NCBI GenBank assembly: GCA_964016885.1
Contig: OZ024743.1
Location: 44,330,001 to 44,394,000 of the forward strand
Reading direction: 5' to 3'
DNA from: Eledone cirrhosa
Taxonomy: Eukaryota
DNA: 64,000 nucleotides
The position numbers and the translations under genes are program-made. The notes under the pieces are model-generated. The model searched no databases. It was not told where the DNA came from and saw nothing but the letters and a program-made list of their open reading frames with translations. Of this stretch, positions 19,502 through 51,519 are shown in pieces. Positions within the stretch are counted from its first letter, which is position 1, and each line of letters begins with the position of its first letter.

Positions 19502-20360
19502 AGGGAAGAAGACGCACGAGGTGGTAGAACGTCACGAAATTGCTCCCGTAAGTTTTTTGATTTTTAACATATTTAAATCAATTGTGAAAGAACAATTCTT
19601 AGCACAAATGTTGCATAAAGGCACCGAATGAGGTCCCATAAAGTTTCGGATCCATATTATATTGTTGTATCGCTCAAATATTCAATTTTGTATTCTATAT
19701 TTTGTATTCAAAAAAAGAAAATGGTTATAAATGGAACAAAACACCCTCTGTCTACACGATATAGAACAGCGGCAATTTCAATTTCACCAACACCAGAAAC
19801 TTGATACACTACCTATCCCATCACACTAAATATAACGGCAACTTCACCGGCATCATAATAATAATTACTATTATTATTGTCTCAAATTTTAAAAAATGTT
19901 TAATTCAAATTTTACGGGAATATGTCAACACAAAATATAATGAAAATATATATTAAACATACGAACACAAACTCATAGATACTATATCAGTAACCACAAC
20001 ACCACCGCTTCCACCACCCCACCACATCCATCATCGCCGCCACCACTCATTCAATGCTACTGACACTATTACCCTGTTAACTTGAGAGAGAAAAGGGAAG
20101 GTGGTGGTAGCACTAGACAAGAGAGAGGCTAGCAAAAGATATAAATAGATTGACTTGGTGACCTTGCCACGGACAAACGTCTACATCAACAATTATGGGA
20201 CTGCTGGCTCACCCCTTCCTCACCAACAATATAAAAAGCCCCGGCACCACCACCGACATAGCCAGCAGCAATAACAGCCAACTACAACAAAAAGTATATT
20301 ATATTATTGTAATGCACTGGGTGATTGCTGGCCTTGTCCCTGGAGTGGAGACAATTATTA
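19502..20360 (+). repeat. Unclassified ~860 bp non-coding repeat ending in a SINE-like tail
   Basis: Other copies at 27370-28105 (+), 44957-45815 (-) and 50436-51518 (-). Ends aatgcactgggtgattgctggccttgtccctggagtggagacaattatta. Confidence 0.85.
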
Positions 20361-20364
20361 ATAA

Positions 20365-23300: not shown

Positions 23301-24387
23301 ATGATCAAACTCGTTTTGAAACACGAAAGCACCAAAAGATCATATTCCATTACAAAAGATGCACAAAGATACAGTAATGGACTACAAATTTCAGAAGTCC
23401 CATTTACTGCTGAAATGGAAAACACAGAAAAAGCAAAGCAGGTAAAAGTAACTGCAAAGAAAGAACTGCTACAGAAACTGGCTAAGAAATGGCAAGAAAA
23501 GCCTCTGTATGGAAAATACCCAGAACGAGCTAACAATCCTGATGTTGACAAATCTTTAACCCATCAGTGGTTGGCATCCTCTGGACTGAAATCGGAGACT
23601 GAAGGACCGATTATATCAGCACAAGATCAGTGTCTGCCAACAAATAATTACCAAGCCAACATAATAAAAAATGGATGCAGCCCATTATGCCGTGTATGCA
23701 AAAAACAACCAGAGACTATTGACCATATAATTTCAATGTGCAGTCCTATAGCTCCAACCGAATACCTAAACAGGCATGATAGAGCTGCACAATACATTCA
23801 TTGGATAATGTGAAAGCATTTTGACCTGCCCCATCAAAAGAATTGGTGGGAGCATCAACCACCACACATACTTGAAAAAGATCACATCTCAATCTTGTGG
23901 AACTTTAGCATCCAAACAGACCGAAAAATATATGCAAATAGACCTGACATAATACTGAAGGACTTTAAAAAGAGGGTATGCCTGCTAATTGATATGTCCG
24001 TTCCAATAGACAAGAATGTATCAATAAAAACATTGAGCAAGTATAAGGACCTGGAGATAGAAATTGGAAAAATGTGGAAATTGAGAACTAAAACAATACC
24101 AGTGGTTGTAGGCGCTCTGGGAATGATACCTAAGGGGTCTAATGATTACTTATCGCAAATCCCAGGAAACCCGCGTATAGGAGAAATACAAAAGATAGTA
24201 CTAATAGGAACTGCCCATATACTAAGGGAGATTCTGTCAATATAAGTACATCACAAGTCTAAACACTAAAGATGTATGTGTGAGTATGTATGTTTTTCTT
24301 GAACATGGCGGACCGTGTTGTCTCTGGAGGTCACTGGTTGTGACTTGGTGATAACTAGTATTAGCATAAAGCAAGATAAATGCAACT

Positions 24388-24388
<1 letters not shown>
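20365..24388 (+). mobile_element. Near-intact full-length Dong/R4-like element (family C, copy 1), TAA-associated
   Basis: ORF pieces 20606-24245: REKWSREDN N-terminal motif, [51 protein letters not shown]. Only a few frameshifts/stops. Ends in (TAA)n at 24389-24464. Confidence 0.95.
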
Positions 24389-24464
<76 letters not shown>

Positions 24465-24469
<5 letters not shown>

Positions 24470-25508
24470 GAAGAGCAGTGATGTCGATAGACTCTACTTA
24501 ACGAAATCTGAAGGTGGAAGAGGTTTTATTAGCATAGAGGACTGTGTTCAGATGGAGAAAAACAACCTACACAAATAAGTAAGGAGCCAATGCTCAGAAT
24601 TGAACTGAAGGAGATGACAATAGACCAGGGGATGTCCAAGGAGGAAATAACAACGAGGAGAAAGAGCAGCTATCATGAAAAATCCCTTCATAGTACCTTC
24701 TTTGAGAAAACTGATTTCAGAGATCCACAGACATGGAACTGGTTGAAAAAGGAGAACTTAAAAAGGCTACAGAATGAATGCTAATGGCTGCGCAGGAGCA
24801 GGCCCTCAAAACGAAGTGGTTGAAACACCATATTTACAAGGAGGAGGCTAGCCCACTGTGCAGGATCTGTGGAGAGAGAGAGGAGACTGTGGCTCACATT
24901 GTATCCGACTGTAAACACCTAGCCCAGACTCACTATAAGGGCTGGGGACATGATGTGCTGGGCAGGGTGATCCATTGGCACCTATGCAAAGTAAACAATT
25001 TACCACATTCTGAGAAGTGGTATGAGCATAAGCCAGAGTTGGTGATAGAAAACGATCAGGTGAAGGTGCTGTGTGATTTTAGGATACAGACCGACAAGAA
25101 ACTGGAACACAATAGACCTGACCTGGTGGTTGTGGACAAGGAAAACAGATCGTGCCTGATTGTGGATATGGCCTGCCCATTCGACACGAGAGTGCAAGAG
25201 AAAGAGTGGGTGAAAATTAACCGATACCAGGACTTAAAGTGGGAGTTAAGAAAGGATTTGGAACTGCCATGAAGTCAAAGTGGTCCCGAATGTCATAGGC
25301 GCACTAGCTACTATCTCAAAAGGTTTCCAGGGATGGTTAAAGAAAATTGGCCCCACCACGCTTTTGGAACGCTTCAAAAGGCATGCTTGCTGGCAACAGC
25401 AAGAACCCTCCGATACGTGCTGAATATCTGAGACTCCCGGTAGTTGTTTGATATTCATTTCAACAAACTTTCCAGTTAACTAACATCAATGACTGAGACT
25501 CAAAGAAC
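24465..25508 (+). mobile_element. 5'-truncated Dong/R4-like element (family D, copy 1)
   Basis: DVDRLYL..GGRG, MAAQEQAL, CRIC..HIVSDC, HNRPDL; short 3' UTR then (TAA)n. Confidence 0.9.
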
Positions 25509-27355: not shown

Positions 27356-27369
27356 ATAATAATAAGATA

Positions 27370-28105
27370 AGGGAAGAAGAAGCACGTGGTCATGAAATCG
27401 CTCCCGTAAGTTTTTGATTTTTTGATTTTTAACATATTTAAAACAATTGTGATATATCAATTCTTAGTACAAATGATATATAAAGCACCAGACTCAACTC
27501 TTCGAAAATTCGGATCCATAATATCCTGTTATATCGCTCAAATATTCAATTTTGTATTATAAATTTTATATTCAAAAAAGAAAATCGTTATAAATGGAAG
27601 AAAACACCCCCTCTGTCTACACTATATAGAACAGCCAAATAATAGCATTTTCACCAATACCACAAACTAGATACACCACCTATACCATCACCCCTCTGTG
27701 TACACTAAATACAACAGCCAGATAACTGCAATTTCACCACTACCACCACCTATTCCAGCATAATAATAATAATTACTATTATTATTGTCTCAAGTTTTCT
27801 CAAAATGTTTAATTCCAATATTAAGAAAAATATGTCAACACATATATTAAACATACGTGACAAACCGCATAGATACACAGATCAAACAAACTACAGTCTA
27901 GTCAACGAAACTCAGTAACGACAACGCCATCACCACTCCATCCATCATTGCTACCACTCTCCCATCAGCGCCGCCACCACTCCTTCATTGCTACCACCAC
28001 TATTCCCCCATTGCCTTCTGTTAACTTAAGAAAGGGGAATGTGGAGGGTATCACTAGACAAGGGAGAGGCTAGAAAAAGATATAAATAGATTGACTTAGT
28101 GACTC
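27370..28105 (+). repeat. Diverged, 3'-truncated copy of the ~860 bp repeat
   Basis: gggaagaagaagcacg.. start; collinear with 19502-20160. Confidence 0.8.
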
Positions 28106-28109
28106 GGTT

Positions 28110-29357
28110 AAATTTTCTAAGTTTAGTTTGTTTAACATGTTCACCTATTTTGTAGTTTGTTAAAATTTCTATGTCAGATCGGAGGTTTATTTGACGATTG
28201 ATGTTCTCTTGCCAAGTAGATTTCTTGTGGGAATTCCTTTGTTTTTTTCATTTAAACTCCACATAAGTGAGTGGTGGCTTTAGCCGATGCATAATAGAGA
28301 TGATTTAAATCAGTAATGTTTAGTTTGTTTGTTATAATAATATTTTTGAGAATTATGTTAGTCTTGTGCATTATCTTTTGGTTCTGTTTGAAGTTCTGGA
28401 TCTTAGGGAGGGTGTCTCGTTCCCCCATGTCAGATCCTTTCATTTTCATCCATTCGATCATAATTTCATCCTTCAAGTTGGCAAGTTCATTCTCATTCAT
28501 TTCTTTATCATTTACGATCTCATTGTTTTCATTTGGAGTTTCATCTTGAGCATGCACTCATTCCACTTTTTCGATCCTTTCTTTAATTTGTTCTGTTGTC
28601 AGTGATTCCGCCCCAACCCTGGGATTCGAAGTGTTACAATTTACCTCGTTTTCACTGACACATGTTTCATTTTCCCTTCGCTGACATTGTGCTAATAGCT
28701 TGATCTGATCAATTTATATATCAGTTAGTAACTTTCTTTTAACAATATTTCTTCGTATATTGGCTAGTTTGTTACTGTCAATATAGCCTCTGTTTTCGGG
28801 ATGTTTCTTTTTCCATTTGATATGTCTGTTCTGTATTCGATGTATTTGATGGGTAGTACAAGGCAATGTAGAAAGCCTCAAGGACTTCTTTATTATCTTC
28901 CCTTGACCATTTTTCTCTCTTTTTCTTTGAATTTCTTGGTGGTGAGCATGGAAGGCCAACAGTAGGAGTATTCCGGTTATGGGAGGTCTCCAGCTCCGAA
29001 GTAATGGGAAGGTTTGAACCATTAGCTGATTTTTCGACCCCAGTCTGGTTCCTCTCTGAGGGACGCGGCCCTTTTTGACCCGGGTGACGGCCGATCCGGT
29101 ATGAGATTTTACCATTAGACATTTACTTTATTTTGTCGCGTTTTATCCGCCAAGGGGTAATCATTTCGTGTTACCACCTCTAGGACGAGTGTCAACCAAG
29201 ACTAGAGGGGTCGTCCTCCCCTAGAGACACGGCTATTCTCCGCCGGCCGCCATCCCGGTATTTCTTGGTCACGGGGTTTTATTTGTTGTTGTTTTTTTAA
29301 ATTGTTATTATCATGAGTGGTTCCTTAATGTGGGCATTGCGTGGCTTAAGAATGAAA
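28110..29357 (-). mobile_element. 5' portion of Dong family C (inverted)
   Basis: Reverse complement of 20365-21620 and 30469-31685; ORFs 28252-28557 and 28778-29122. Confidence 0.92.
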
Positions 29358-29374
29358 TTATTAATAATATAATA

Positions 29375-30452
29375 TAAACGGAAAAAATGAAACGAAATTT
29401 CATTTCTCACTCTTAGTACGGCTGTTACTTAAATATAGGTATGTATATGTACATACATATATGTATACAGACGTACAGTAGTATGTATATATATATACAT
29501 ACATGCACATATATATATATGTACATATGGATTCACCGAACATTTATTATAATGCTCGGTGTTTTTGTAAACAAACATCCCTAATTAAGCCGTACAGTGT
29601 GTAGCAACCATCGTTGCTCATTTGTTCAACCCTCACAAAGGAACGCTGTACTACTTTCAAGCTTATTAGCTATAGTCAGCAACGTATACCTTCCGGCCAG
29701 ATGATTGAACGATAGCTAATAAGCTTGAAACTAGTACAGCGTTCCTTTGTCAGGGTTGAACAAATGAGCAACGATGGTTGCTAGACAATGTACGGCTTAA
29801 TTCGGGATGTTTGTTTACAAACACACCGAGCATTATAATAAATTGTCGGTGAATCCATACGTACACATATATATATATATATGGGTGCATGTATGTATAT
29901 ATATATATACATAGTACTGTACGTATGTATACATATATGTATGTACGTATACATACTTATATTTAAGTAACAGACGGACTAAGAGTGAGAAATGAAATTT
30001 CATTTCATATTTTCCGTTTATCGTTTTCGGTACCCCGGCCGATTAACTCACTCGTTATGCCAATTAGGCTGCTCAGCCGTTAATGTGCATAGGGAAAGTT
30101 TATACTTTCAGACGTTCAATCATCTGGCAGGAAGGTATACGTTGCTGACGATAGCTAATAAGCTTGAAACTAGTACAGCGTTCCATTGTCAGGGTTGAAC
30201 AAATGAGCAACGATGGTTGCTAGACAATGTACGGCTTAATTCGGGATGTTTGTTTACAAACACACCGAGCATTATCATAAATGTTCGGTGAATCCATACG
30301 TACATATATATATATGTGTGCATGTATGTATATATATATACATTCTACTGTACGTCTGTATACATATATGTATGTACGTATACATACTTATATTTAAGTA
30401 AAAGCTGTACTAAGAGTGAGAAATGAAATTTCGTTTAATTTTTTCCGTTAAT
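29375..30452. mobile_element. ORF-less Penelope-type pLTR / retrozyme-like repeat: three ~300-340 bp units, one inverted and two direct
   Basis: 29375-29710 is the reverse complement of 30111-30452 and, partly, of 29711-30021. Each unit carries all or part of a hammerhead motif. Confidence 0.75.
30140..30180 (+). ncRNA. Minimal type I hammerhead ribozyme
   Basis: cgttg (stem I) CTGACGA, t-agct-aata-agct-t (stem II), GAAA, palindromic stem III ACTAGT, GTA cleavage triplet, cagcg (stem I'). Confidence 0.8.
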
Positions 30453-30468
30453 ATTATATATTTAATAA

Positions 30469-33400
30469 TTTCATTCTTAAGCCACGCAATGCTCACATTA
30501 AGGAACCACTCATGATAATAACAATTTAAAAAACAACAAAAAAGAAAAGCCCGTGACCAAGAAATACCGGGATGGCCCCTCTAGCCTTGGTTGACACTCG
30601 TTCTAGAAGTGGTAACACGAAATGATTACACCTTGGCGGATAAGGATAAAACGCGACAGAATAAAGTAAATGTCAAATGATAAAATCTCATACCGGATCG
30701 GCAGTCACCGGAGTCAAAAACGGCCGCGCCCCTCAGAGAGGAACCAGACTGGGGTCGAAAAATAAGCTAATGGTTCAAACCTTCCCATCACTTCGGAGCT
30801 GGAGACCTCCCATTACCGGAATACTCCTACTGTTGGCCCTCCATGCTCACCACCAAGAAATCCAAAGAAAAAGAGAGAAAAATGGTCAAGGGAAGATAAT
30901 AAAGAAGTCCTTGAGGCTTCTACACTGCCATGTACTACTCATCAAAGAGATCGAATACAGAACAGACATATATCAACTGGAAAAAGAAACATCCCGAAAA
31001 CAGAGGCTATATTGACAGTAAGAAACTAGCCAATATACAAAGAAATATTGTTAAAAAAAAGTTACTAGCTGATATAGAAATTGATCAGATCAAGCTATTA
31101 GAACAATGTCAGCGAGGGGAAAATGAAACATGTGTCAGTGAAAACGAGGTAAATTGTAACACTTCGAATCCCAGGGTTGGGGCGGAATCACTGACAACAG
31201 AACAAATTAAAGAAAGGATCGAAAAAGTGGAAGGAGTGCATGCTCAAGATGAAACTCCAAATGAAAATAATGAGATCGTAAATGATAAAGAAATTAATGA
31301 GAATGATCTTGCCAACTTGAAGGATTAAATTATGATCGAATGGATGAAAATGAAATAATCTGATATGGGGCAACGAGACACCCTTCCTAAGATCCAGAAC
31401 TCCAAACAGAACTAAAAGATAATACACAAGCCTAACATAATTCTCAAAAACATTATCATCACAAACAAACTAAACATTACTGATTTAAATCATCTCTATT
31501 ATGCATCGGCTAAAGTCACCAATCACGTATGTGGAGTGAAAATGAAAAAACAAAGGATTTCCCACAAGAAATCTACTTGGCAAGAGAACATCAATCGCCA
31601 AATAAACCTTCTCCGATCTGACATAGAAATTTTAACAAACTATAAAGTAGGTGAACATCTTAAAGAAAACTAAACTTAGAAAATTGAAAAGAAAGTATAG
31701 TATAAAATCAACAAGTGACATAGACATGCTGATAGAAATAATCAAGCAAAAAGTGTCGGCCAAAGCTGCTTGTATAAGGCGCTTTGAAAGACGATCTAGA
31801 TTCTATAAGGACAATAATATGTTCAAAAACAAACAAAGAAAATTCTACAGTAAAATTGGCAAGTGAACAATAACTGCTAAATATATACCACCCAAGGAGG
31901 AAATTCAAGAATTCTGGGAAAAGATCTGGGCCAAAGAAAAAGTTCATAATATACATGCCCCATGGATAGACAGATGAATGAAAAATACATCTCACCTTGA
32001 GGAACAAATATGGGAAAATATAACAGTTGAACAGTTGCGTTTGGGTCTTAGAAAAACCAGCAAATGGAAATCCCAAGGAAAAGACAAAATACCAAATATT
32101 TGGATAAATGCCTTCACAGAGTCTCATGAGTTGTTAGCCCAAATTTGCAATGAAATAGTTAAGGAGCCAGAAAAGATACCATTATGGCTAGTTAACGGCA
32201 TTACAACCCAATAACTTGCTTGACCACAATGTATAAAATGTTAACATAAGTCCTAACTGAATATACATATGACCACCTGATAACAAATGACCTAATTCCC
32301 AATGAACAGAAATGGTGTAAACGAGGCTCATATGGCTGTAGTGATCAGCTTTTGCTTAACAAAATGATACTGGAAGATTGTCATTTTAGACACAAAAATC
32401 TATCAATTGCTTGGATAGATTATAAAAAAGCATTCGATAGTTTGCCACACAGTTGGATTGAAAAATATCTCCCGTTGTCAGAAGGTTTTTGTCATTCAGT
32501 ATGAAGACTTGGAGAACGACACTCCTTATGAATAGTGAAACAAAATCACTGGAAGCTGGAGAAGTTAATATTAATTGTGGAATTTTTCAGGGTGACTCTT
32601 TATCACCACTTTTATTCTGCATCGCTCTTATACCAGTACGTAAAGTGCTCAATGAAACAAAACATGGATATAAAGTCTATGAGAAACCATTAATCACTTG
32701 TTCTACATGGATGACCTGAAACTATTTGCAAAAAATGATGAATACTTGCAATGGCTATTGTACACTGTGGAGCAGTTCAGTGATGACATTAAAATGGAGT
32801 TTCGACTAGATAAATGCGCCAAAGCAACGTTCACCAGAGGAAAGCTGCAGAAAAGTTCAGACATTAATCTTGATCTGGGGAATGTGATGAGAGAACTTGA
32901 TCAAGAAAAAACTAACAAATATCTAGGTGTTTGTGAAGGAGACGGAATCAAGCACTCGACAATGAGGGAAAGGATAAGGAAGGAATGTTACCGCAGAGTA
33001 AGAGCAATCTTAAGAACGGAATTGAAATGCAAGAAATAGGATCGATGCCATAAATACGCTTACCATACCAGTAGGATCCTACAGTTACAATGTTATCAAC
33101 TGGTCAAGCACAGAAATCCGTAGGCTCGATACAAACATTGGAAAATTCTCAACCATGCATAGAATGCATCACCCTAAGACAGATACAGATAGAATATATC
33201 TCCCTAGGAAAGAAGGAGGACGTGGGTTAATCCAGTTAGATATTGCGTTGAAAACAGCAACAATTGGATTATCTACATATCTAAGGGAATCACATGATTG
33301 GATGATCAAACTCGTTTTGAAACACGAAAGCATCAAAATATCATACTCCATTACAAAAGATGCACTAAGATACAGTAATGGACTACACATTTCAGAAGTC

Positions 33401-34398
33401 CCATTTGCTGATGAAATGGAAAACACAGAAAAAGCAAAGCAGGTAAAAGTAACTGCAAAGAAAGAACTGCTACAGAAGCTGGCTAAGAAATGACAAAAAA
33501 AGCCTCTGTATGGAAAATACCCAGAAAGAGCTAACCATCCTGATGTTGACAAAACTTTAACCCATCTGTGGTTGGTATCCCATGGACTGAAATCGGAGAC
33601 TGAAGGACTGATTATATCTGCACAAAATCAGTGTCTGCCAACAAAAAATTACCAAGCCAACATAATAAAAAATGGATGCAACCCATTATGCCGTGTATGT
33701 AAAAAACAACCAGTGACCATTAATCATATAATTTCAATGTGCAGTCCTATACTCCAACCGAATACCTAAACAGGCATGACAGAGCTGCACAATACATACA
33801 TTGGATAATGTGTAAGCATTTTGACCTGCCCCATCAAAAGAATTGGTGGGAGCATCAATCACCACACATACTTGAAAAAGATCACATCTCACTCTTGTGG
33901 AACTTTAGCATCCAAACAGACCGAAAAATATATGCAAATAGACCTGACATAATACTGAAGGACTTTAAAAAGAGGGTATGCCTGCTAATTGATATGTCCG
34001 TTCAAATAGACAAGAATGTATATATAAAAACATTTGAAAAACTGAGCAAGTATAAGGACCTGGAGATAGAAATTAGCAAAATCGGGAAATTGAGAACTAA
34101 AACAATACCAGTGGTTGTAGGCGCTCTAGGAATGATTCCTAGGGTGTCTAATGATTACTTATCGTAAATCCCAGGAAACCCGCGTATAGGAGAAATACAA
34201 AAGATAGTACTAATGGGAACTGCCCATATACTAAGGAAGATTCTGTCAATATAAGTACATCACAAATCTAAACACCTAAAGATGCATGTGTGTGTATGTA
34301 TGTTCTGTCTTGAAGATGGCGGACCTTGTTGTTTCTTGAGATCACTGGTTGTGACTTGGTGATAACTCGTATGCACATAAAGAAAGATAAATGCAGCT

Positions 34399-34399
<1 letters not shown>
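30469..34399 (+). mobile_element. Full-length but degraded Dong family C copy
   Basis: Collinear with 20365-24388, with many stops and small deletions; (TAA)n tail. Confidence 0.93.
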
Positions 34400-34435
<36 letters not shown>

Positions 34436-34442
34436 TAATAAT

Positions 34443-35305
34443 AATGCTGATGTTGACAAAACGTTAACCCATCTGTGGTTGGCATCCTCTGGACTGAAAT
34501 CGCAGACTGAAGGATTGATTGTATCAGCATAAGATCTGTGTCTGCCAACAAAAAAAAATACAAAGCCAACATAATAAAAAATGGATGCAACCGATTATGC
34601 CGTGTACGTAAAAAACAACCAGAGACCATTGACCATATAATTTCAATGTGCAGTCCTATAGCTCCAACCGAATACCTAAACAGGCATGACAGAGCTGCAC
34701 AATAAATACATTGGATAATGTGTAAGCATTTTGACCTGCCCCATCAGAAGAATTGGTGGGAGCATCATCGACCTCCCGTACTTGAAAAAGATCACATCTC
34801 AATCTTGTGGAACTTTAGCATCCAAACAGAACGAAAAATAGATGCAAATAGACCTGATATAATACTGAAGGACTTGAAAAAGAGAGTATGTCTGCTAATT
34901 GATATGTCCGTTCCAATAGACAAGAAAGTATCTATAAGAACATTTGAAAAATTGAGCAAGTATAAGGATCTGGAGATAGAAATTGGAAAATTGGGGAAAT
35001 TGAGAACTAAAACAATACCAGTGGTTGTAGGCGCTCTAGGAATGATACCTAAGGGTTCTAATGATTACTTATCGCAAATCCCAGGAAACCCGCGTATAGG
35101 AGAAATACAAAAGATAGTACTAATGAGAACTACCCTTATACTAAAGAAGATTATGTCAATATAAGTGCATCACAAGTCTAAACACCTAAAGATGCATGTG
35201 TCCGTATGTATGTCCTTTCTCGAACATTGCGGACCTTGTCTCTTGAGGTCACTGTTTGTGACTTGGTGATAACTCGTATGAACATGAAGCAAGATAAATG
35301 CAACT

Positions 35306-35306
<1 letters not shown>
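34443..35306 (+). mobile_element. 5'-truncated Dong family C copy (knuckle, RLE, 3' UTR)
   Basis: ORF 34718-35164; starts and ends in TAA repeats. Confidence 0.92.
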
Positions 35307-35337
<31 letters not shown>

Positions 35338-35338
<1 letters not shown>

Positions 35339-37377
35339 TAAATGCTATCACAGCGTATCATGAACTGTTAGCCCAACTTTACAATGAAATAGTTAAGGAG
35401 CCAGAAAAGATACCATCATGGCTAGTTAACGGCATTACATTCCTGCTTCCGAAGAATTATGAGACGAACAATCCCCAAAATTACAGACCGATAACTTGCT
35501 TGACCACAATATATAAAATGTTAACATCAGTCCTAACAGAATATACATATGACCACCTGATAACAAATGACCTATTTCCCAATGAACAGAAAGGGTGTAA
35601 ACGACGCTCATATGGCTGTAAGGATCAGCTTTTGGTTAACAAAATGATACTGGAAGATTGTCATAATAGACACAAAAATCTATCAATTGTTGGATAGATT
35701 ATACAAAAGCATTCGATAGTTTGCTACACAGTTGGATTGAAAAATGTTTAGAGATTTTCAAAAATATCTCACGTTGTCAGGAGGTACTTGTCATTCAGTA
35801 TGAAGACATGGAAAACGACACTCCTTATGAATAGTGAATGAAAATCACTGGAAGCTGGAGAAGTTAATATTAATTGTGGAATTTTTCAGGGTGACTCTTT
35901 ATCACCGCTTTTATTCTGCATCGCTCTTATACCATTAAGTAAAATGCTCAATCAATCAAAACATGGATATAAAGTCTATGACAAAACCATTAATCAATTG
36001 TTCTACATAGATGACCTGAAACTATTTGCAAAAAATTATGAACAATTGCAAGGGCTATTATCCACACTGGAGCAGTTCAGTGAAGACATTAAAATGGAGT
36101 TTCGACTAGATAAATGCGCCAAAGCAACATTCGCCAGAGGAAAGATGCTGAAAAGTTCAGACATTAATCTTGATCGGGGGAATGTGATAAGAGAAGTTGA
36201 TTAAGAGGAAACTTACAAATATCTAGGTGTTTGTGAAGGAGACGGAATCGAGCAATCGACAATGACGGAAAGGATAATAATAATAAATATAAGGAGGGAA
36301 AGGATAAGGAAGGAATGTTAACGCACAGTAAGAGCAATCTTAAGAACGGAATTGAATGCAAGGAATAGGATCGATACCATAAATACGCTTGCCATACCAG
36401 TAGTAACCTACCATTACAATGTCATCAACTGGTCAAGCACAGAGATCCGTAGGCTCAATACAAAAATTAGAAAATTCTTAACCATGCACAGAATGCATCA
36501 CCCTAAGGCAGATACAGATAGAATATATATCTCCCTGGGAAAGAAGGACGACGTGGGTTAATCCAGTTAGATATTGCGTTGAAAACTGCAACAATTGGAT
36601 TATCTACATATCTAAGGGAATCACATGATTGGATGATCAAACTCGTTTTGAAACACGAAAGCATCAAAAGATCATACTCCATTACAAAAGATGCACAAAG
36701 ATACAGTAATGAACTACACATTTTAGAAGTCCCATTTACTTCTGAAATGCAAAAGACAGAAAAAGCAAAGCAGGTAAAAGTAACTGCAAAGTAAGAACTG
36801 CTACAGAAACTGGCTAAGAAATGGCGAGAAAAGCCTCTGTATAGAAAATACCCAGAGCGAGCTAATAATCCTGATGTTGACAAAACTTTAACCCATCAGT
36901 GGTTGGCATCCTATGGACTGAAATCAGAGACTGAAGGACTGATTATATCAGCACAAGATCAGTGTCTGCAAACAGAATATTATCAAGCCAACATAATAAA
37001 AAATGGATGCAGCCCATTATGCCATGTATGTAAAAAACAACCAGAGACCATTGATCATATAATTTCAATGTGCAGTCCTATAGCTCCAACCGAATACCTA
37101 AACAGGCATGACAGAGCTGCACAATACATACATTGGATAATGTTTAAGCATTTTGACCTGCCCCATCAAAAGAATTGGTGGGAGCATCAACCACCTCCAT
37201 ACTTGAAAAAGATCACATCTCAATCTTGTGGAACTTTAGCATGCAAACAGACCGAAAAATATATGCAAATAGACCTGACATAATACTGAAGGACTTTAAA
37301 AAGAGGGTATGCCTGCTAATTGATATGTCCGTTCAAATAGACAAGAATGTATATATAAAAACATTGGAAAAATTGAG
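35338..37377 (+). mobile_element. Internal Dong family C fragment (RT to RLE), truncated at both ends
   Basis: ORF pieces 35206-37381; stops abruptly at KTLEKL and fuses to family D. Confidence 0.9.
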
Positions 37378-39058
37378 GTGAGTATCCTTTACCAGTGCAA
37401 CAATATCCTCAAAGCAACAGAAATTGCGTTGAGGAAATTACTTGGCATAAAAGCGAGAGGAAACAACAAACAAGGAAGATCGGAACATTGGTGGAAGAAA
37501 CGACTGAATGGTCAAATCACGGAAATGAGAAATTACATTGGAAAGCTTGAGTCCCTACTGAACGGGACACTACAAAACATAGACACTAAAATTAGACTGG
37601 AAATAAAGTACAAAACTAGGAGTAAAAAGCTAAATATTATCATATAGGAACTGAAACAACGCATTGTAGCAAAGAGCGCAAAGATTAGGCTATATGAGAG
37701 CAGAGTCAGTTAGTATAGACAGAACCGCATGTTTGACAACAACCAGAAGATGTTGTTTGGACAGCTTGAGGGGAAAGAAAGAGGCAACGACTTGATCCCT
37801 GGGGCGGAACAAACTAAAACATTCTGGAGAGGAATATGGGAACAGGATATTGAACATAATGATCAGACAGTGTGGATTGAGACAGTACAAAAGGAGATTA
37901 ATGAACTGGCACACCAACAAACTGATTTGAGTATCACAGTGGAAACTCTTAAGGGGCAGGCCAAAAAACTAACCACCAGGAAATCACCAGGCCCAGATGG
38001 TGTGCAGGGGTATTGGATTAAAAATATAACATCCCTCCACCCGAAACTGACAACCATGTTCAATGACTGCTTGATGTCAGGTGAGGTACGAGAGTGGTTG
38101 ACAAAAGGTATCAGAGGTCTGGTAATGAAAGACCGAACCAAGGGTAATGATGTTACCAACTATAGACCTATCACATGTCTGTCCGTAATGCGGAAACTGT
38201 TAATAAGCATTGTATCTTAGGGAATCTACCATCACCTCCACATAAACAACTTGTTACCGGACGAACAGAAAGGATTTCGAAAGACGTCCCGTGGTACAAA
38301 GGACCAGTTACTTATTGATAAGATGGTAATGAGGAATTGCAGGAGGAGACAACTGGTCGTGCCAAGGGATGGATAGACTACAAAAAGGCATTCGACATGG
38401 TACCTCATTCTTGGATCTGTGGAGAGAGAAAGGAGACTGTGGCTCACATTGTATCAGAGTGTAAACACCTAGCCCAGACTCACTATGATGGCTGGAGACA
38501 TGATGTGATGGGCAGTGTGATCCACTGGCACCTATGCAAAGAAAACAATTTACGACATTCTGAGAAGTGGTATGAGCATAAGCCCGAGTCGGTGATGGAA
38601 AACGATCAGGTGAAGGTGCTGTGGGATTTTATGATACGGACGGACAAGAAACTGGAACACAATAGACCTAACCTGGTGGTTTTAGACAAGGTAAAAAGAT
38701 CGTCTCTGTTTGTGGATGTAGCCTGCCCATTCGACTGGAGAGTGCAAGAGAAGGAGAGTGAGAAAATTAACCGATACCAGCACTTGAAGAGGGAGGTAAA
38801 AAGGATTTGGAACTGCCATGAGGTGAAAGTGGTCCCAATCGTCATAGGCGCACTAGGTACTATCTCAAAGAGTTTCCAAGGATGGTTAAAGAAAATTGGT
38901 TCCGCCCCGCCTTTTGGAACACTTCAATAGGCATGCTTGCTGGGAGCAGCAAGAACCCTCCGATACGTCCTGAATATCTGAGGCTGCAGGTAGTGGCTTG
39001 ATATTCATTTCAACAAACGTTCCAGTTAAATAACATCAATGACTGAGACTCAAAGAAC
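37378..39058 (+). mobile_element. Dong family D copy 2 with RT core deleted
   Basis: KSPGPDGVQGYWIK, NYRPITCL; KAFDMVPHSWI joined directly to CGERKETVAH; (TAA)n tail at 39059-39121. Confidence 0.9.
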
Positions 39059-39121
<63 letters not shown>

Positions 39122-39122
<1 letters not shown>

Positions 39123-40374
39123 TTTCAAGAATTTTTAAAAGTCAATATTATTTTCTTCATAGTCAGTATTTTTTTCGAAATTTGTATAATGCTTGAAAGG
39201 TTCTTCCAGACTTATGGAGACAAGTTCCGAATAATTATTTTTTCTTATTAATTTGTAATTATTAATAAAGTTTCCAAATTGCAAAGATTGCAATTTGGTG
39301 AAATGGAAGCGTTCCGATAGGAATCAGAACCCTTTAGAAATATTAATTACTCAAGAAATTGAGTTTTTAATATTTTTCTCTTTTAAAGACCATATTAATT
39401 GTGATAATGATGTAGAACATTTTTTATCTGGATTAGAGAATGGATGTTTATTATTGGGAAAGCGAAACTTAAAGTTCGATGAAGTGGCACCAATGTAGTT
39501 ATAAGTATTATTATTATTTGTCTTAATGGTACATTTATATACTAAATTCTTGTCAAGGCAATTATTTTTAAAGGGCATTCAGATTTCCTTCTACAGTTAC
39601 AGTTCAATTCGAAGTTATTTCTATAACCTAAACTATTCGTATTATCATTATTATTTCTAGGTGTTCTACTATTATTCGTATTTAAACTATTGTTATTCAC
39701 ATTAACTAATGTATTATTATTATTATTATTATTGTTATTATCGCTAATTATATGCTGGTTAAAATTAAGAATTTTACTGTTAATATTTTCAATATTTTGC
39801 GCAATATTCATAGTTGTTGAATAAGAAAGTTTAACTGTGTGTCTATTGAAGATAGTGTAATACTTATGTGATCTAGGGAAACATTTATGAAAGGCTTTAA
39901 AGAATAAATGTGCTAAAGGTGTTTTAATAGCTAAAGGTGCCTGGCGGAGCAAACGAAATTATAGATCTACTCCTAATTTTTTTCCCCGATTTATTCCTCA
40001 AGTTGTTATTTTTACAGTCAGTTTATTTTTATTATTATTACTATGAATACTGTGTTTATAATTTATATTATTTTTTATACATATTCAATATTATTTTTAT
40101 ATCCTACTTTATGTAACGCTTCATTATAATATCCAGCTTTAGTATTAAATATGGATCTATTAGCAGATAGTCTGGATATTCGTTGTTGGACACTATTGAC
40201 TATGGCATTAATTATTATTAATAATTACAAATTATGGTAATTTAATTAATAAGAAAAAAGAATAATTCGGAACTTGTCTCCATAAGTCTGGAAGAACCTT
40301 TCAAGCATTATACAAGTTTCGAAAAAATACTGACTATGAAGAAGAAAATATTGACTATTAATAATTCTTGAAAT
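39122..40374 (-). mobile_element. Penelope-like element remnant with inverted terminal repeats (about 39122-39265 and 40235-40374)
   Basis: Minus-strand pieces: HKYYTIFNRHTVKLSYST, CNCRRKSECPL, NLVYKC, YIGATS..FK.RF..STSLSQLIWSLK (GIY-YIG). Ends are reverse complements. Confidence 0.85.
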
Positions 40375-40398
40375 ATTATTATTATTATTATTATTATT

Positions 40399-42839
40399 GT
40401 TCTTTGAGTCTCAGTCATTGATGTTAGTTAAGTGGAAAGTTTGTTGAAATGAATATCAAGCCACTACCTGCAGCCTCAGATATTCAGGACGTATCGGAGG
40501 GTTGTTGCTGTTGCCAGCAAGCATGCCTTTTGAAGTGTTCCAAAAAGCAGGGCGGGGCCAATTTTCTTTAACCATCCCTGGAAACCTTTTGAGATAGTAC
40601 CTAGTGCGCCTATGACAATCGGGACCACTTTGACGTCATGGCAGTTCCAAATCCTTTTTACCTCCCTCTTTAAGTCCTGGTATCGGTTAATGTTCTCCCT
40701 CTCCTTCTCTTGCACTCTCGTGTCTAATGGGCAGGCCACATCCACGATCAGGCACGATCTTTTTTCCTTGTCCAAAACCACCAGGTCAGGTCTATTGTGT
40801 TCCAGTTTCTTGTCGGTCTGTATCCTAAAATCCCACAGCACCTTCACCTGATCGTTTTCTATCACCAACTCTGGATTATGCTCATACCACTTCTCAGAAT
40901 GTGGTAAATTGTTTACTTTGCATAGGTGCCAGTGGATCACCCTGCCCATCACATCATGTCTCCAGCCCTTATAGTGAGTCTGGGCTAGGTGTTTACACTC
41001 GGATACAATGTGAGCCACAGTCTCCTCTCTCTCTCCACAGATCCTGCACAGTGGGCTAGCCTCCTCCTTGTAAATATGGTGTTTCAACCACTTCGTTTTG
41101 AGGGCCTGCTCCTGCGCAGCCATTAACATTCCTTCTTCTTAAGGTCTCCTCTTTTCAACCAGTTCCATGTCTGTGGATCTCTAAATTTAGTTTTCTCAAA
41201 GAAGGTACTATGAAGGAATTTTTCCTGAAGGCAGCTCTTTCTCCTTGATGTTATTTCCTCCTTGGACATCCATTGGCCTATTGTCCTTTCCTTCAGTACA
41301 GTTCTGAGCATTGGCTCCTTACTACCAGTAACGTATTTGTGCAGGTTGATTTTCTCCATCTGAACACAGTCCTCTATGCTGATAAGACCTCTTCCACCTT
41401 CATATCTCCTTCAGTAGAGTCTATCGACATCACTCCTCTTGTGGAAGATGTTGTAGATAGTCAATAGCTTCCTAGTCTTCCTATCCATTTCTTTTTGTTC
41501 AGCAACATTCCATCTCAGAATTCCCGCACTGTACCTAATAATAGACACAGCTCGGGAATTTACTGCACTTATGGCATTCCTACTGTTCAGATGTGACTTT
41601 AATACGCTCCTTACTCTCCGAATGTATTCAGTTCTTATCAATTCCTTCATTTTTTTGTTCTTGATGTCATCAGCCTCCAGTACGCCCAAATAATTGTATA
41701 CTTCTTCAGAGTCAATTTCCTTTATCCACTCACCTGTTGGTACCTGGATTCCGTTACTTCTGCTCAACTTACCCCTTTTCATCACAATGACTCCACACTT
41801 ACTAATACCAAATTGCATACATATATCATTGCTGAAAATACGGACAGTGTCAACAAGCACATCCAACTCTTTCTCACTCTTCCCGAAGAGCTTAAGATCG
41901 TCCATGAAGAGGAGGTGATTGATGGTAAGCCCTCCCTTTCCCAACCCGTATCCTGCCCTCACTTTTCGCAGTACACTGGTCAGGGGCATCAGGGCAAGGA
42001 CAAACAACAGATGGGACAGACTATCTCCCTGGAAGATACCTCTCTTGATCTTCACGCTTCTCAAGGATTCTCCAGTTGATGTTAACTCTGTTTCCCAGGA
42101 CTTCATACTTTTGCCCAACAACTGTCTGATGTTATCTGCCACCTTGAAGATCTCCAGGCTTTTGGTGATCCAAGAATGAGGCACCATGCCTTGTTGTAGT
42201 CTATCCATCCCATGGCAAGACCAGTGTATCTCCTCTTGCAATTCCTCATTACCATCTTATCTCAAAGTAACTAGTCCTTTGTACCACGTGACTTCTTTCG
42301 GCATCCTTTCTGTTCGTCCGGTAACAAGTTGTTTGTGTGAGGTGATGGTAGATTTCCTCAGACATAATGCTTGTCAACAGTTTCCACATTACGGACAGAC
42401 ATGTGATAGGTCTATAATTGGTAACATCATAACTCTTGATTCGGTCTTTCATTATCAGAACTGTGGTACCTTTTGTCAACCACTCTGGTACCTCACCTGA
42501 CATCAAGCAGTCATTGAACATGGTTGTCAGTTTCGGGTGGCGGGATGTTATATTTTTAATCCAATACCCCTGCACACCATCTGGGCCTGGTGATTTCCAG
42601 TTGGTTAGTTTTTTGGCCTGCCCCTTAAGAGTTTCAACTGTGATACTCAAATCAGTTTGTTGGTGTGCCTGTTCACTAATATCCTTCTGTACTGTCTCAA
42701 TACACACTGCCTGGTCATTATGTTTAACATCCTGCTCCCATATTCCTCTCCAGAATGTTTTAGTTTGTTCCGCCTCAGGGATCAAGTCGTTGCCTCTTTC
42801 TTTCCCTTCAAGCTGTCCAAAAGCATCTTCTGGTTGTTG
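40399..42839 (-). mobile_element. Dong family D copy 3 (RT + RLE), 5'-truncated
   Basis: ORFs 42249-42785, 41411-42241 (GIFQGDSLS, FMDDLK) and 40476-41129. Confidence 0.93.
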
Positions 42840-42863
42840 TTATTATTATTATTATTATTATTA

Positions 42864-44952
42864 TTTGCATTTATCTTGCTTTATGTTTATACGAGTTATC
42901 ACCAAGTCACAACCAGTGACCTCAAGAGACAACAAGGTCCGCCATGTTCAAGAAAGAACACACATATTCACACATGCATCCTTAGTATTTAGACTTGTGA
43001 TGTACTTATATTGACAGGATCTTCCTTAGTATATGGGCAGTTCCCATTAGTACTACCTTTTGTATTTCTCCTATACGCGGGTTTCCTGGGATTTGCGATA
43101 AGTAGTCGTTAGACCCCTTAGGTATCATTCCCAGAGCGCCTACAACCACTGGTATTGTTTTAGTTCAAAATTTCCACATTTTTCCAATTTCTATCTCCAG
43201 GTCCTTATACTTGCTCAATTTTTCAAATGTTTTTATAGATACATTCTTGTCTATTGGAACAGACATATCAATTAGCAGGCATACCCTCCTTTGAAAGTCC
43301 TTCAATATTATATCAGGTCTATTTGCATCTATTTTTCGGTCTGTTTGGATGCTAAAGTTCCACAAGATTGAGATGTGATCTTTTTCAAGTATGGGAGGTG
43401 GTTGATGCTCCCACCAATTCTTTTGATGGGGCAGGTCAAAATGCTTACACATTATCCAATGTATGTATTGTGCAGCTCTGTCATGCCTGTTTAGGTATTC
43501 GGTTGGAGCTATAGGACTGCACATTGAAATTATATGGTCAATGGTCCTCCTTCTTTCCTAGGGAGATATATTCTATCTATGTCTGCCTTAGGGTGATGCA
43601 TTCTGTGCATGGTTAAGAATTTTCGGATTTTTGTATCGAGCCTACGGATCTCTGTGCTTGACCAGTTGATGACATTGTAACTGTAGGTTACTACTGGTAT
43701 GGCAAGCGTGTTTATGGCATCGATCCTATTCCTTGCATTCAATTCCGTTCTTAAGATTGCTCTGACTCTGCGGTAACATTCCTTCCTTATCCTTTCCCTC
43801 ATTGTCGAGTGCTTGATTCCGTCTCCTTCACAAACACCTAGATATTTGTAAGTTTGTTCTTGATCAAGCTCTCTTATCACGTTCCCCCGATCAAGATTAA
43901 TGTCTGAACTCTTCAGCAGCTTTCCTCTGGTGAACGTTGCTTTGGCGCATTTATCCAGTCCAAACTCCATTTTAATGTCATCACTGAACTGCTTCACAGT
44001 GGATAATAGCCCTTGCAATTGTTCATCATTTTTTGCGAATAGTTTCAGGTCATCCATCTAGAACAGGTGATTAATGGTTTTGTCATAGACTCTATATCCA
44101 TGTTTTGTTTCATTGAGCATTTTACTTAATGGTATAAGTGCGATGCAGAATAAAAGCGGTGATAAAGAGTCACCCTGAAAAATTCTACAATTAATGTACA
44201 TTCTCCAGCTTCCAGTGATTTTGTTTCACTATTCAAAAGGAGTGTCGTTCTCCATGTCCTCATACTGAATGACAAAAACCTCCTGACAACGGGGGATATT
44301 TTGAAAATCTCTAAACATTTTTCAATCCAACTGTGTGGCAAACTATCAAATGCTTTTTTTATAATCTATCCAAGCAATCGATAGATTTTTGTGTCTATTA
44401 TGACAATCTTCCAGTATCATTTTGTTAACCAGAAGCTGATCCTTACAGCCATATGAGCCTCGTTTACACCCTTTCTGCTCAATGGGAAATAGGTCATTTG
44501 TTATCAGGTGGTCATATGTGTATTCAGTTAGGACTGATGTTAAAATTTTATACATTGTGGTCAAGCAGGTTATCGGTCTGTAATTTTTGGGATTGTTTGT
44601 CTCATCATTCTTCGGTAGCAGGAATTTAATGCCGTTAACTAGCCATGATGGTATCTTTTCTGGCTCCTTAACTATTTCATTGTAAAGTTGGGCTAACAGC
44701 TCATGAGACTCTGTGAAGGCATGTCGCGTTTTATCCTTATCCGCCAAGGGGTAATCTTTTCGTGTTACCACTTCTAGAACGAGTGTCAACCAAGACTAGA
44801 GGGGTCGTTCTCCCCTAGAGACATGGCTATTCCCCGCCGGCCGCCATCCCGGTATTTCTTGGTCACGGGGTTTTCTTTTTGTTGTTTTTTTTTAAATTGT
44901 TATTATCATGAGTGGTTCCTTAATGTGAGCATTGCGTGGCTTAAGAATGAAA
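42864..44952 (-). mobile_element. Dong family C copy with both ends but two large internal deletions
   Basis: 5' UTR fused to the pre-RT region at about 44722; RKEGG joined to the knuckle region at about 43545. Confidence 0.92.
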
Positions 44953-44956
44953 TTAT

Positions 44957-45814
44957 TAATAATTGTCTCCACTCCAGGGACAAGGCCAGCAATCACCCAG
45001 TGCATTACAATAATATAATATACTTTTTGTTGTAGTTGGCTGTTATTGCTGCTGGCTATGTCGGTGGTGGTGCCGGGGCTTTTTATATTGTTGGTGAGGA
45101 AGGGGTGAGCCAGCAGTCCCATAATTGTTGATGTAGACGTTTGTCCGTGGCAAGGTCACCAAGTCAATCTATTTATATCTTTTGCTAGCCTCTCTCTTGT
45201 CTAGTGCTACCACCACCTTCCCTTTTCTCTCTCAAGTTAACAGGGGAATAGTGTCAGTAGCATTGAATGAGCGGTGGCGGCGATGATGGATGTGGTGGGG
45301 TGGTGGCAGCGGTGGTGTTGTGGTTACTGATATAGTATCTATGAGTTTGTGTTCGTATGTTTAATATATATTTTCATTATATTTTGTGTTGACATATTCC
45401 CGTAAAATTTGAATTAAACATTTTTTTAAATTTGAGACAATAATAATAGTAATTATTATTATGATGCCGGTGAAGTTGCCGTTATATTTAGTGTGATGGG
45501 ATAGGTAGTGTATCAAGTTTCTGGTGTTGGTGAAATTGAAATTGCCGCTGTTCTATATAGTGTAGACAGAGGGTGTTTTGTTCCATTTATAACCATTTTC
45601 TTTTTTTGAATACAAAATATAGAATACAAAATTGAATATTTGAGCGATACAACAATATAATATGGATCCGAAACTTTATGGGACCTCATTCGGTGCCTTT
45701 ATGCAACATTTGTGCTAAGAATTGTTCTTTCACAATTGATTTAAATATGTTAAAAATCAAAAAACTTACGGGAGCAATTTCGTGACGTTCTACCACCTCG
45801 TGCGTCTTCTTCCC

Positions 45815-45815
<1 letters not shown>
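44957..45815 (-). repeat. Near-identical inverted copy of the ~860 bp repeat at 19502-20360
   Basis: ORFs 20195-20425 and 44892-45122 translate identically; ends match exactly by eye. Confidence 0.92.
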
Positions 45816-45888
<73 letters not shown>

Positions 45889-46000
45889 GAGTTCAAATCC
45901 CGCCGAGGTTAACTTTCCCTTTCATCCTTACGGGGTCGATAAAATAAAGTACCAGTAATGTACTGAGTAATTTCTGGCCTTGTTCCAAGAGAAGAAACAA

Positions 46001-46005
<5 letters not shown>
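45889..46005 (+). mobile_element. 5'-truncated SINE between (TAT)n and (TA)n
   Basis: Starts at B box gagttcaaatcc; central domain and tail present. Confidence 0.85.
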
Positions 46006-46082
<77 letters not shown>

Positions 46083-46212
46083 GAATAAACACAGTAAATT
46101 GTGTGTTTAGAATTACAAGGGTAGTAAGACCATGTTGGTTAGACGAATATAAACACAGAATCAAACGGAAAATACAAGATAGATTAAAATGTACTGACCG
46201 TTTCAATAACTA

Positions 46213-46305
46213 TTATCTCCCGGACAGATTAGAGATTAATCTGTTTCACCCTGAAAAGTTGTGTTTGTAACAGATAAACCGGAGGCAGTCCTCAGCGGGA
46301 GATAA
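46213..46305 (-). ncRNA. Type I hammerhead ribozyme in a ~280 bp solo unit (46080-46358)
   Basis: Minus strand: ttatctcccg CTGAGGA [41 nt stem II region] GAAA cagatta-atctc-taatctg TC cgggagataa. Perfect 10 bp stem I, 8 bp stem III, GTC triplet. Stem II base is weak. Confidence 0.8.
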
Positions 46306-46359
46306 GATTATATGCAATAAACACCTATCAGAGTAGGTAAAGTAAATAAACACGAGGTA

Positions 46360-46408
<49 letters not shown>

Positions 46409-46409
<1 letters not shown>

Positions 46410-50431: not shown

Positions 50432-50435
50432 TTAT

Positions 50436-51518: not shown

Positions 51519-51519
<1 letters not shown>

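What the first reader, a model, noticed from the sequence alone, without database searches (positions are those of the whole stretch)
28110..42839. Dong array flips polarity at two Penelope-type inverted repeats, and the symmetry extends into the flanks
Seen: at 29375-30452 an inverted hammerhead-bearing repeat has a family C 5' end directly on both sides, giving a palindrome with ~1.6 kb arms (28110-29710 vs 30111-31685). At 39122-40374 a Penelope remnant with inverted ends has (TAA)n plus a family D 3' end on both sides. Dong copies are all + from 30.5 to 39.1 kb and all - from 40.4 to 50.4 kb. Known: Penelope-like elements often form inverted pLTRs. Inference: the Penelope inversion step may copy flanking DNA and seed chromosomal palindromes. 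Alternatively it creates oppositely oriented TAA tracts that nucleate opposing Dong arrays. Either would be an interplay between two retroelement classes that I do not recognise as described.
Basis: partly seen in the sequence, partly recalled or inferred. Interest (0 to 1): 0.8.

Follow-up and report, generated by a model that had tools for sequence, protein, structure and literature searches.

The report
Penelope mirror filled by Dong arrays
One mirror-ended Penelope jumping gene has a TAA repeat in each arm, and unrelated Dong elements piled into both arms, facing each other; inside one Dong copy a small ribozyme-bearing element sits at the centre of a rare 1.3 kb mirror copy of its neighbouring DNA, likely made while it inserted.

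Summary
Both symmetries are real but have different causes. Centre 2 (39.1-40.4 kb) is the middle of one Penelope-like insertion with Hydra-clade motifs, whose inverted arms reach 11.9 and 53.0 kb. Each arm natively carries a (TAA)n tract, and Dong and another LINE expanded both tracts (25.6 and 11.1 kb). The flanking D copies are not sisters, so no flank copying occurred there. This is the only real polarity switch. Centre 1 does not flip the array: Dong is + on both sides. A hammerhead retrozyme sits in one Dong C copy. About 1.27 kb of its 3' flank is duplicated in inverted form and about 123 bp is lost upstream. The shared junction occurs twice in the genome, both here, but the arms are not sisters in trees. 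Flank copying is not routine: no clear case and 1 ambiguous case among 136 other retrozyme ends. In 37 of 68 other simple inverted insertions the inverted arm is not contained in the direct arm. That suggests twin priming rather than fold-back copying. Reads were inconclusive. Somatic L1 analogues are published. New variant of known kinds; interest 0.4.

The parts
11944..13408 (-). Outer part of the left arm (3' region / pLTR) of the Hydra-like Penelope insertion; hammerhead-like core near 12051
   Evidence: Continues uninterrupted genomic copies beyond the tract; nearest relative is the right arm, 93.8%, with 7 shared variants absent from 11 other copies; core motif
13409..13461 (+). Outer remnant of the left (TAA)n tract
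13462..19473 (-). Family E LINE (APE endonuclease + RT + zf-RVT) nested in the tract, opposite polarity to Dong
   Evidence: Pfam; junctions
19503..25508 (+). Full-length Dong C (19503-24388) and a 5'-truncated D (24465-25508)
27356..28107 (+). 5' region of the C-'short' subfamily copy that hosts centre 1; ends about 123 bp before the retrozyme site
   Evidence: Matches the 5' region of C-short copies; gap to the arm start 127-132 nt in most copies
28108..29376 (-). Inverted duplicate of about 1.27 kb of the Dong sequence that lies 3' of the retrozyme
29377..29711 (-). Inverted retrozyme unit, unit positions 92-431; hammerhead core mutated
29710..30449 (+). Two direct retrozyme units (127-431 and 1-431), 3-nt overlap with the inverted unit; intact hammerhead motif at 30139-30185
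30450..34399 (+). Remainder of the host C-short Dong copy, starting at the TA-rich insertion site
34439..39058 (+). Further Dong C pieces and the left D copy (37377-39058, internal deletion of about 1.1 kb at 38417)
39059..39122 (+). Inner remnant of the left (TAA)n tract / tail of D
39123..40210 (-). 3' end of the Penelope ORF, 5'-truncated and broken by frameshifts and stops: RT thumb, CxCx5C linker, C-terminal GIY-YIG
   Evidence: tblastn with ORF pieces of genomic relatives; Pfam GIY-YIG E 0.012, below cut-off
40216..40373 (+). Inverted copy of the last ~160 bp before the tract (start of the inverted arm)
40374..40398 (-). Inner remnant of the right (TAA)n tract
40399..51518 (-). Right Dong array: D (40399-42839) and several C pieces, all on -
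51519..53014 (+). Outer remnant of the right tract (to 51588) and outer part of the inverted arm; hammerhead-like core (mutated) near 52907

Best explanation
One Penelope-like insertion with inverted arms (11.9-53.0 kb) carries a native (TAA)n tract in each arm, independent Dong copies fill both tracts in opposite polarity, and inside one Dong copy a hammerhead retrozyme sits at the centre of a 1.27-kb inverted duplication of its 3' flank that likely arose once, at or soon after its insertion. Shown: the nested anatomy, the sister status of the two Penelope arms, the non-sister D arms, the genome-unique junction, and the rarity of flank copying. Inferred: (1) Dong inserts in fixed orientation into TAA, and each new copy brings a new TAA tail, so each tract grows into a same-polarity array. 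(2) The retrozyme's inverted arm was likely made by a second priming on the RNA (twin-priming-like), as in most inverted copies here. (3) The upstream DNA end was likely not joined normally. Either a second copy of the same nicked target primed the inverted arm, or the loose end invaded the 340-bp inverted unit and copied 1.27 kb onward. It was then joined bluntly to the upstream sequence with loss of about 123 bp. I cannot separate these two routes.
For: Centre 2: outer arms continue the element. They are each other's nearest copy and share 7 variants absent from 11 others. The tract is intact in 20 of 28 other copies and holds a Dong 3' end in 3 of 28, all in the window's polarity. The same split anatomy is seen at L183 and three more loci. 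D arms are not sisters. Dong's TAA target is published (PMC7998251, passages). Centre 1: the junction pattern has 2 matches in 3.0 Gb, both here. Both arms belong to the C-short subfamily, 18 of the first 100 listed copies, and a C-short 5' region abuts the left arm in the right place. All three units share a variant seen in 0 of 116 other units. The arms are each other's top partner for rare shared changes (2). Arm departures (32 and 40 in ~1.2 kb) and unit departures (about 3-4%) are of similar depth. The inverted unit starts at position 92, as do 5 of 78 other inverted arms (91 or 92), two of which cannot be copies of their direct arm (L251, L321). The two direct units share a variant (4 of 122 others) that the inverted unit lacks.
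Against: The centre 1 arms are only 94.8% alike, rank 59 of 61 and 55 of 61 for each other, and are not sisters in FastTree or IQ-TREE. Two rare shared changes are weak: 11 of 190 background pairs reach that, rough chance 0.08. The right arm carries the other subfamily's letter at 3 diagnostic columns where the left arm does not, which needs conversion or recurrent mutation. The junction search was an exact pattern and would miss mutated examples. The window's inverted unit is itself contained in the direct arm, so a simple snap-back is geometrically possible. Timing cannot exclude later host repair. Both tracts filled was seen only in this window among about 30 copies examined.
Confidence: 0.72

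Rival explanations
1. Centre 1 arose later by host repair alone: a break just upstream of an ordinary inverted retrozyme insertion was healed by invading the inverted unit and copying the flank (template switch), with no role for the retroelement enzymes.
For: It gives the same product and keeps the left unit's own variants. Insertions ending at the unit 3' end on both sides exist without flank copying (L293, L318). Flank copying is absent or nearly absent from 136 other ends.
Against: Only 2 rare changes are shared against about 30-38 private ones per arm, so the event falls early in the copy's history, which a random later break would seldom do.
Confidence: 0.15
2. Centre 1 joins two independent C-short copies, each hit by the retrozyme at the same site and later brought together by recombination.
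For: The arms are not sisters in trees and differ by 5%; the right arm has 3 letters of the other subfamily.
Against: The junction occurs nowhere else. All three units share a private variant. The matching 5' region sits directly outside the left arm, and the whole lies inside one Penelope arm whose partner is 40 kb away.
Confidence: 0.06
3. The Penelope inversion step routinely copies flanking DNA and seeds chromosomal palindromes, at both centres.
For: Centre 1 has this shape; L197 has a ~60-bp inverted flank copy that is unique among 328 loci.
Against: D arms are unrelated. No clear case among 136 other ends. In 37 of 68 other simple inverted insertions the inverted arm holds sequence missing from the direct arm, and 56 of 69 (window included) end at an internal TA-rich site.
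Confidence: 0.04
4. The palindromes are assembly artefacts.
For: No listed contig or read bridged the 28107/28108 junction in the runs laid.
Against: The arms differ by 83 substitutions and 9 gaps, whereas artefactual mirrors would be near-identical (inference). The nesting is coherent over 41 kb. The runs lacked the window's private letters, so they probably do not carry this allele.
Confidence: 0.03

Closest known systems
Penelope-like elements with inverted pLTRs, Hydra clade (Craig et al. 2021, PMC8557442; Arkhipova et al. 2013, PMC3846280)
   Same: 5'-truncated copy next to an inverted copy, giving inverted repeats around the unit; C-terminal GIY-YIG, CxCx5C linker, DKT, CxxC and CxH motifs; hammerhead-like core in the repeat; TA-rich ends.
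   Different: Each arm carries a (TAA)n tract that a second retroelement class has expanded to 25.6 and 11.1 kb in opposite polarity. I did not find this in the passages read or in searches.
Non-LTR retrozymes (PMC7229834; bioRxiv 10.64898/2026.07.22.740005)
   Same: Short non-coding tandem units, each with a type I hammerhead; proposed non-autonomous passengers of Penelope-like elements.
   Different: Unit about 430 bp (the paper gives about 300 bp as typical). About half of the insertions here have an inverted arm with a second fixed end point; 'inverted' has 0 occurrences in the main text of PMC7229834. One insertion carries an inverted flank duplication.
R4/Dong non-LTR retrotransposons (PMC7998251)
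   Same: RT plus restriction-like endonuclease motifs; insertion into (TAA)n; same-polarity head-to-tail arrays.
   Different: Nothing in the elements themselves; only the host site (two mirrored tracts in a Penelope element) is unusual.
L1 twin priming and L1-linked fold-back / inverted duplication (PMC10191854; bioRxiv 10.1101/2024.12.14.628481)
   Same: 5' inversion with short microhomology; rare inverted duplication of target DNA (0.3% of somatic L1 insertions); fold-backs that contain the insertion on the primed side.
   Different: The short L1 duplications (about 52-220 bp) lie on the upstream side and are somatic. Here 1.27 kb of the downstream side is duplicated, the element's 3' end is on both arms, and the event is old and in a Penelope-type passenger.

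Membership tests
Hydra-clade Penelope-like element (centre 2) | C-terminal GIY-YIG endonuclease after the RT | tested here: met
   Motif order in ORF pieces of relatives and window; Pfam GIY-YIG E 0.0026 and 0.012, both below the curated cut-off
Hydra-clade Penelope-like element (centre 2) | CxCx5C linker, DKT, CxxC and CxH around the conserved E and N | tested here: met
   Seen in translations of L174, L175, L178, L186 and, for the linker, the window; definitions from PMC8557442 section 11
Hydra-clade Penelope-like element (centre 2) | Hammerhead in the terminal repeat | tested here: met
   Core motif in the left arm and 13 rows from other loci; mutated in the right arm; pairing judged by eye, not folded
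Hydra-clade Penelope-like element (centre 2) | N-terminal RWK motif; RT phylogeny inside the Hydra clade | not tested
   No full-length copy examined and no reference set at hand
Non-LTR retrozyme (centre 1) | Short non-coding tandem units, each with a type I hammerhead | tested here: met
   Tandem units of about 430 bp at many loci; motif with stems; weak Rfam HH9 match
Non-LTR retrozyme (centre 1) | Self-cleavage and circular RNA in vivo | not testable with these tools
   Needs a bench assay; no RNA holder listed
Non-LTR retrozyme (centre 1) | Derived from, or moved by, an autonomous Penelope-like element | tested here: inconclusive
   No similarity to the Hydra arms in the window; shared TA targeting and inverted structure only
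R4/Dong (families C and D) | RT followed by a Cys/His motif and a PD..D..K restriction-like endonuclease | tested here: met
   Pfam RVT_1; motifs in translations; nearest solved structures are R2 proteins
R4/Dong (families C and D) | Insertion into (TAA)n in fixed orientation | tested here: met
   Junctions in the window and at L072, L073, L088; loci
R4/Dong (families C and D) | N-terminal Myb/SANT-like domain; RT phylogeny inside the R4 clade | not tested
   The Atlas search gave only unnamed eukaryotic clusters; the name Dong rests on architecture and target
Twin priming (mechanism, 'works like') | Inverted segment is templated by RNA, not copied from the first cDNA | tested here: inconclusive
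   37 of 68 other simple inverted insertions are not contained in the direct arm; later deletions at the palindrome centre could mimic this; the window's own case is contained

The most novel reading that the evidence does not exclude
Penelope-type inverted repeats are made by twin priming at two fixed TA sites of the RNA (here unit positions ~375 and 431). This would explain the long-noted one-sided 'tail' of these elements. When the upstream end fails to join, the same intermediate duplicates kilobases of downstream DNA in inverted form in the germ line, and centre 1 is a fossil of that step.
Probability: 0.35. Interest if true: 0.65.

Novelty: new variant of a known kind. Interest (0 to 1): 0.4.

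Why it matters
How Penelope-like elements form their inverted repeats is an open question (PMC3846280 proposes self-priming; PMC8557442 calls for mechanistic work). This genome has at least 2,744 retrozyme ends, enough to count insertion geometries. The sample already points to two fixed priming sites and makes twin priming testable in the in vitro system of PMC11167929, where both target strands are cut and extended. The window also shows how a 2-4 kb Penelope insertion can seed a 41-kb block of opposed retrotransposon arrays. It gives no evidence that Penelope elements routinely seed chromosomal palindromes.

Tried and rejected
Naiad identity for centre 2: rejected, the endonuclease is C-terminal. 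A DNA transposon with terminal inverted repeats at centre 1: rejected, units are tandem and the inversion point varies between loci. Shared 5' truncation of two Dong copies: rejected, the site is a retrozyme insertion site in the C-short subfamily. Whole-window Rfam scan: only microsatellite-driven miRNA and snoRNA matches, no hammerhead at E 0.05. Reads: no RNA holder listed. Contigs and RAD reads were swamped by other repeat copies and no listed record bridged the junctions; uninformative. Looking for close opposite-strand pairs of retrozyme ends in listings: none within 2 kb among 100, 97 and 100 listed places. One pair 11.5 kb apart had unrelated flanks. This test is insensitive and missed the window itself. 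The flank test failed its positive control (identity filter too strict) and was replaced, which passed it. L192's 1.7-kb inverted match starts 590 bp into the flank and was set aside without being identified. L264 and L299 hits are common repeats (11 and 44 of 328 loci). The pair at C1:128.98-129.00 Mb has inverted Hydra pieces, but its tracts hold no Dong. The hammerhead core count across units returned nothing because of a faulty pattern. The tally of what follows Dong tails was not used. Earlier-finding look-ups gave nothing relevant. A genome-wide test for enrichment of Penelope repeats at Dong polarity switches was not run.
Full report
Setting. The window is G000:C4:44330001-44394000 in a 3.0-Gb genome. 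Families C and D have an RT most like solved R2 proteins, C-terminal Cys/His and PD..D..K motifs and (TAA)n tails. That fits R4/Dong as described in PMC7998251 (passages). I built no clade tree. All Dong pieces are + from 19.5 to 39.1 kb except 28108-29368, and all are - from 40.4 to 51.5 kb. There is therefore one polarity switch, at centre 2.

Centre 2: identity. The 1.25 kb between the two D copies is the broken 3' end of a Penelope-like ORF on the - strand (39123-40210), joined to an inverted copy of its last ~160 bp. ORF pieces of genomic relatives show RT, DKT, a CxCx5C linker, a C-terminal GIY-YIG and CxxC/CxH motifs. These are the Hydra-clade features listed in PMC8557442 (section 11). 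A hammerhead-like core lies near the element's 3' end.

Centre 2: nesting. In uninterrupted copies the ORF end is followed by a (TAA)n tract and about 1.3 kb more of the element. In the window that continuation lies at 11944-13408 and, inverted, at 51589-53014. Over a 499-column alignment these two outer arms are each other's nearest copy (93.8%) and share 11 departures, 7 of them absent from the 11 other copies aligned. So one insertion with inverted arms spans 11.9-53.0 kb, and everything at 13462-39058 and 40399-51518 is nested in its two tracts. Among 28 other copies, 20 have an intact tract, 3 have a Dong 3' end in it in the window's polarity, 1 has family E, 1 a retrozyme, 2 a short common repeat and 1 is unclassified. 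The split anatomy is seen in full at L183 and at three more loci. Where an inverted arm was seen at those loci it was too short to include a tract, so no opposing array formed.

Centre 2: the D arms. They are 92.6% alike and rank 29 of 32 and 32 of 32 for each other. The right one groups with the D copy at 24.5 kb (the comparison set was 29 top hits to the left arm plus two other copies). Flank copying is refuted here, and the opposed-tract reading holds.

Centre 1: the element. The centre holds three units of a ~430-bp tandem repeat with a type I hammerhead motif, which fits non-LTR retrozymes (PMC7229834, passages; bioRxiv 10.64898/2026.07.22.740005, abstract, introduction and part of methods). 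The family is large: 2,744 exact matches to a 30-nt 3' end followed by TA. The layout is inverted unit 92-431, direct unit 127-431, direct unit 1-431, with 3 nt shared at the inversion point. All three units carry a variant found in 0 of 116 other units, so they come from one insertion.

Centre 1: the flanks. Both arms start at the same TA-rich site about 0.8 kb into a C subfamily that lacks a 48-bp segment (18 of the first 100 of 1,030 listed copies, counted by eye). An exact pattern for this junction matches twice in the genome, both times here. Directly outside the left arm, 27356-28107 is the 5' region of the same subfamily on +, ending about 123 bp short of the site. The simplest history is one C-short copy, one retrozyme insertion, an inverted duplicate of 1.27 kb of downstream DNA, and a small upstream deletion with a blunt joint.

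Centre 1: evidence against. The arms are 94.8% alike, rank 59 and 55 of 61 for each other, and are not sisters in either tree. They have 32 and 40 departures from the column majority of 20 C-short copies and share 4, two of them rare. That makes each the other's best rare-sharing partner, but 11 of 190 background pairs do as well and a rough chance estimate is 0.08. The right arm has the other subfamily's letter at three diagnostic columns, which I cannot explain except by conversion or recurrent change. A duplication soon after the Dong copy landed would leave few shared changes, so the tree test is weak here. The case rests on the unique junction and the geometry.

How common is flank copying? 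I fetched 138 other retrozyme ends: 80 from the first 82 of the 2,744 places (contig C1 only) and 58 of 97 with a short TA flank. Two proved to be internal junctions, leaving 136. With a test that recovers the window as positive control, three had an inverted match to their 3' flank upstream. Two are common repeats and one (L197, about 60 unique bp) is ambiguous. About half of all insertions have an inverted arm. Of 69 simple inverted structures, window included, 56 end at unit positions 365-390, a TA-rich internal site, and 5 end at the unit end. In 37 of the 68 others the inverted arm holds sequence that the direct arm lacks. The routine inversion step therefore does not look like DNA copying. 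It looks like a second priming on the RNA, as in L1 twin priming. Later deletions at palindrome centres could mimic part of this, and self-priming on an antisense template (PMC3846280, passages) is not excluded. A Penelope enzyme cuts and extends both target strands in vitro (PMC11167929, passages).

Mechanism at centre 1 (inferred). Two signs argue against a plain snap-back copy of the right unit. The inverted unit starts at position 92, as do 5 of 78 other inverted arms, just downstream of a 16-bp palindrome present in most units. It also lacks a variant shared by the two direct units. I favour a twin-primed insertion whose upstream end failed to join. It was either primed from a second copy of the same nick, or repaired by invading the inverted unit and copying onward. 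Similar depths of divergence in arms and units place the event near the insertion, but later host repair remains possible. L1 makes related products in somatic cells: short fold-backs in 0.3% of insertions (PMC10191854, passages), and fold-backs holding the insertion on the primed side (bioRxiv 10.1101/2024.12.14.628481, passages).

Artefact check. The arms differ by 83 substitutions and 9 gaps, and the nesting is coherent over 41 kb. Public runs were uninformative.

Novelty. Every component is a known kind. I did not find Dong arrays in mirrored Penelope tracts, twin priming applied to Penelope elements, or flank duplication at retrozymes in searches. Apart from the papers named above I saw listings only; no supplements were read, and subscription papers are not covered. 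The two symmetries are a predictable by-product of target preference (centre 2) and a rare accident (centre 1). The most useful lead is the two-site geometry of inverted retrozyme insertions. Verdict: new variant of known kinds, interest 0.4.

Noticed in passing
L189-L268, L271-L328 (retrozyme insertions): One end of an insertion lies at unit position 431 and the other, when inverted, at ~375; the 56-nt difference resembles the one-sided 30-40 bp 'tail' described for Penelope elements.
   Followed up: partly
window 30093-30113; most genomic units: A perfect 16-bp palindrome with a TATA-like centre lies just upstream of unit position 92, where inverted arms recurrently begin; it could be a promoter element or a reverse-transcription stop. 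It is mutated in the window's copy.
   Followed up: partly
window 13462-19473 and 25731-27353: An APE-type LINE family (E) also inserts into (TAA)n tracts, always opposite to Dong, including in the Hydra tract at other loci (L079, L337, L335/L336).
   Followed up: partly
L197, about 1.9 kb upstream to 0.1 kb downstream of the anchor: Two retrozyme insertions flank a ~600-bp hairpin element, and ~60 unique bp of the 3' flank recur inverted at the far end; a possible second short flank copy or an older inverted repeat.
   Followed up: partly
L192 (C1:5.41 Mb): A 1,679-bp, 100% identical inverted repeat brackets a retrozyme insertion, starting about 0.6 kb from it on each side; a very young duplication or an assembly feature.
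   Followed up: no
window 19474-20594 vs 44722-45843; 22042-23220 vs 43544-44722: Two Dong C segments in the opposing arrays are 99.5% and 98.7% identical and meet at 44722 with an internal deletion: a young close relative of the 19.5-kb copy, or conversion between the arrays.
   Followed up: no
window 20312-20359: The majority C subfamily carries a 48-bp segment between ATTATT repeats that also occurs as part of a short dispersed repeat at many loci.
   Followed up: partly
window 60009-60997 and 10346-10557: Remnants of other, more distant Penelope-like ORFs (tblastn).
   Followed up: no
window 6747-7553 (-): An open frame with C2H2 zinc-finger matches; possibly a host exon or part of another element.
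   Followed up: no
G000:C1:128.98-129.01 Mb (L329-L332, L176): Another inverted pair of Hydra pieces, 18 kb apart, with three family E copies between them.
   Followed up: partly
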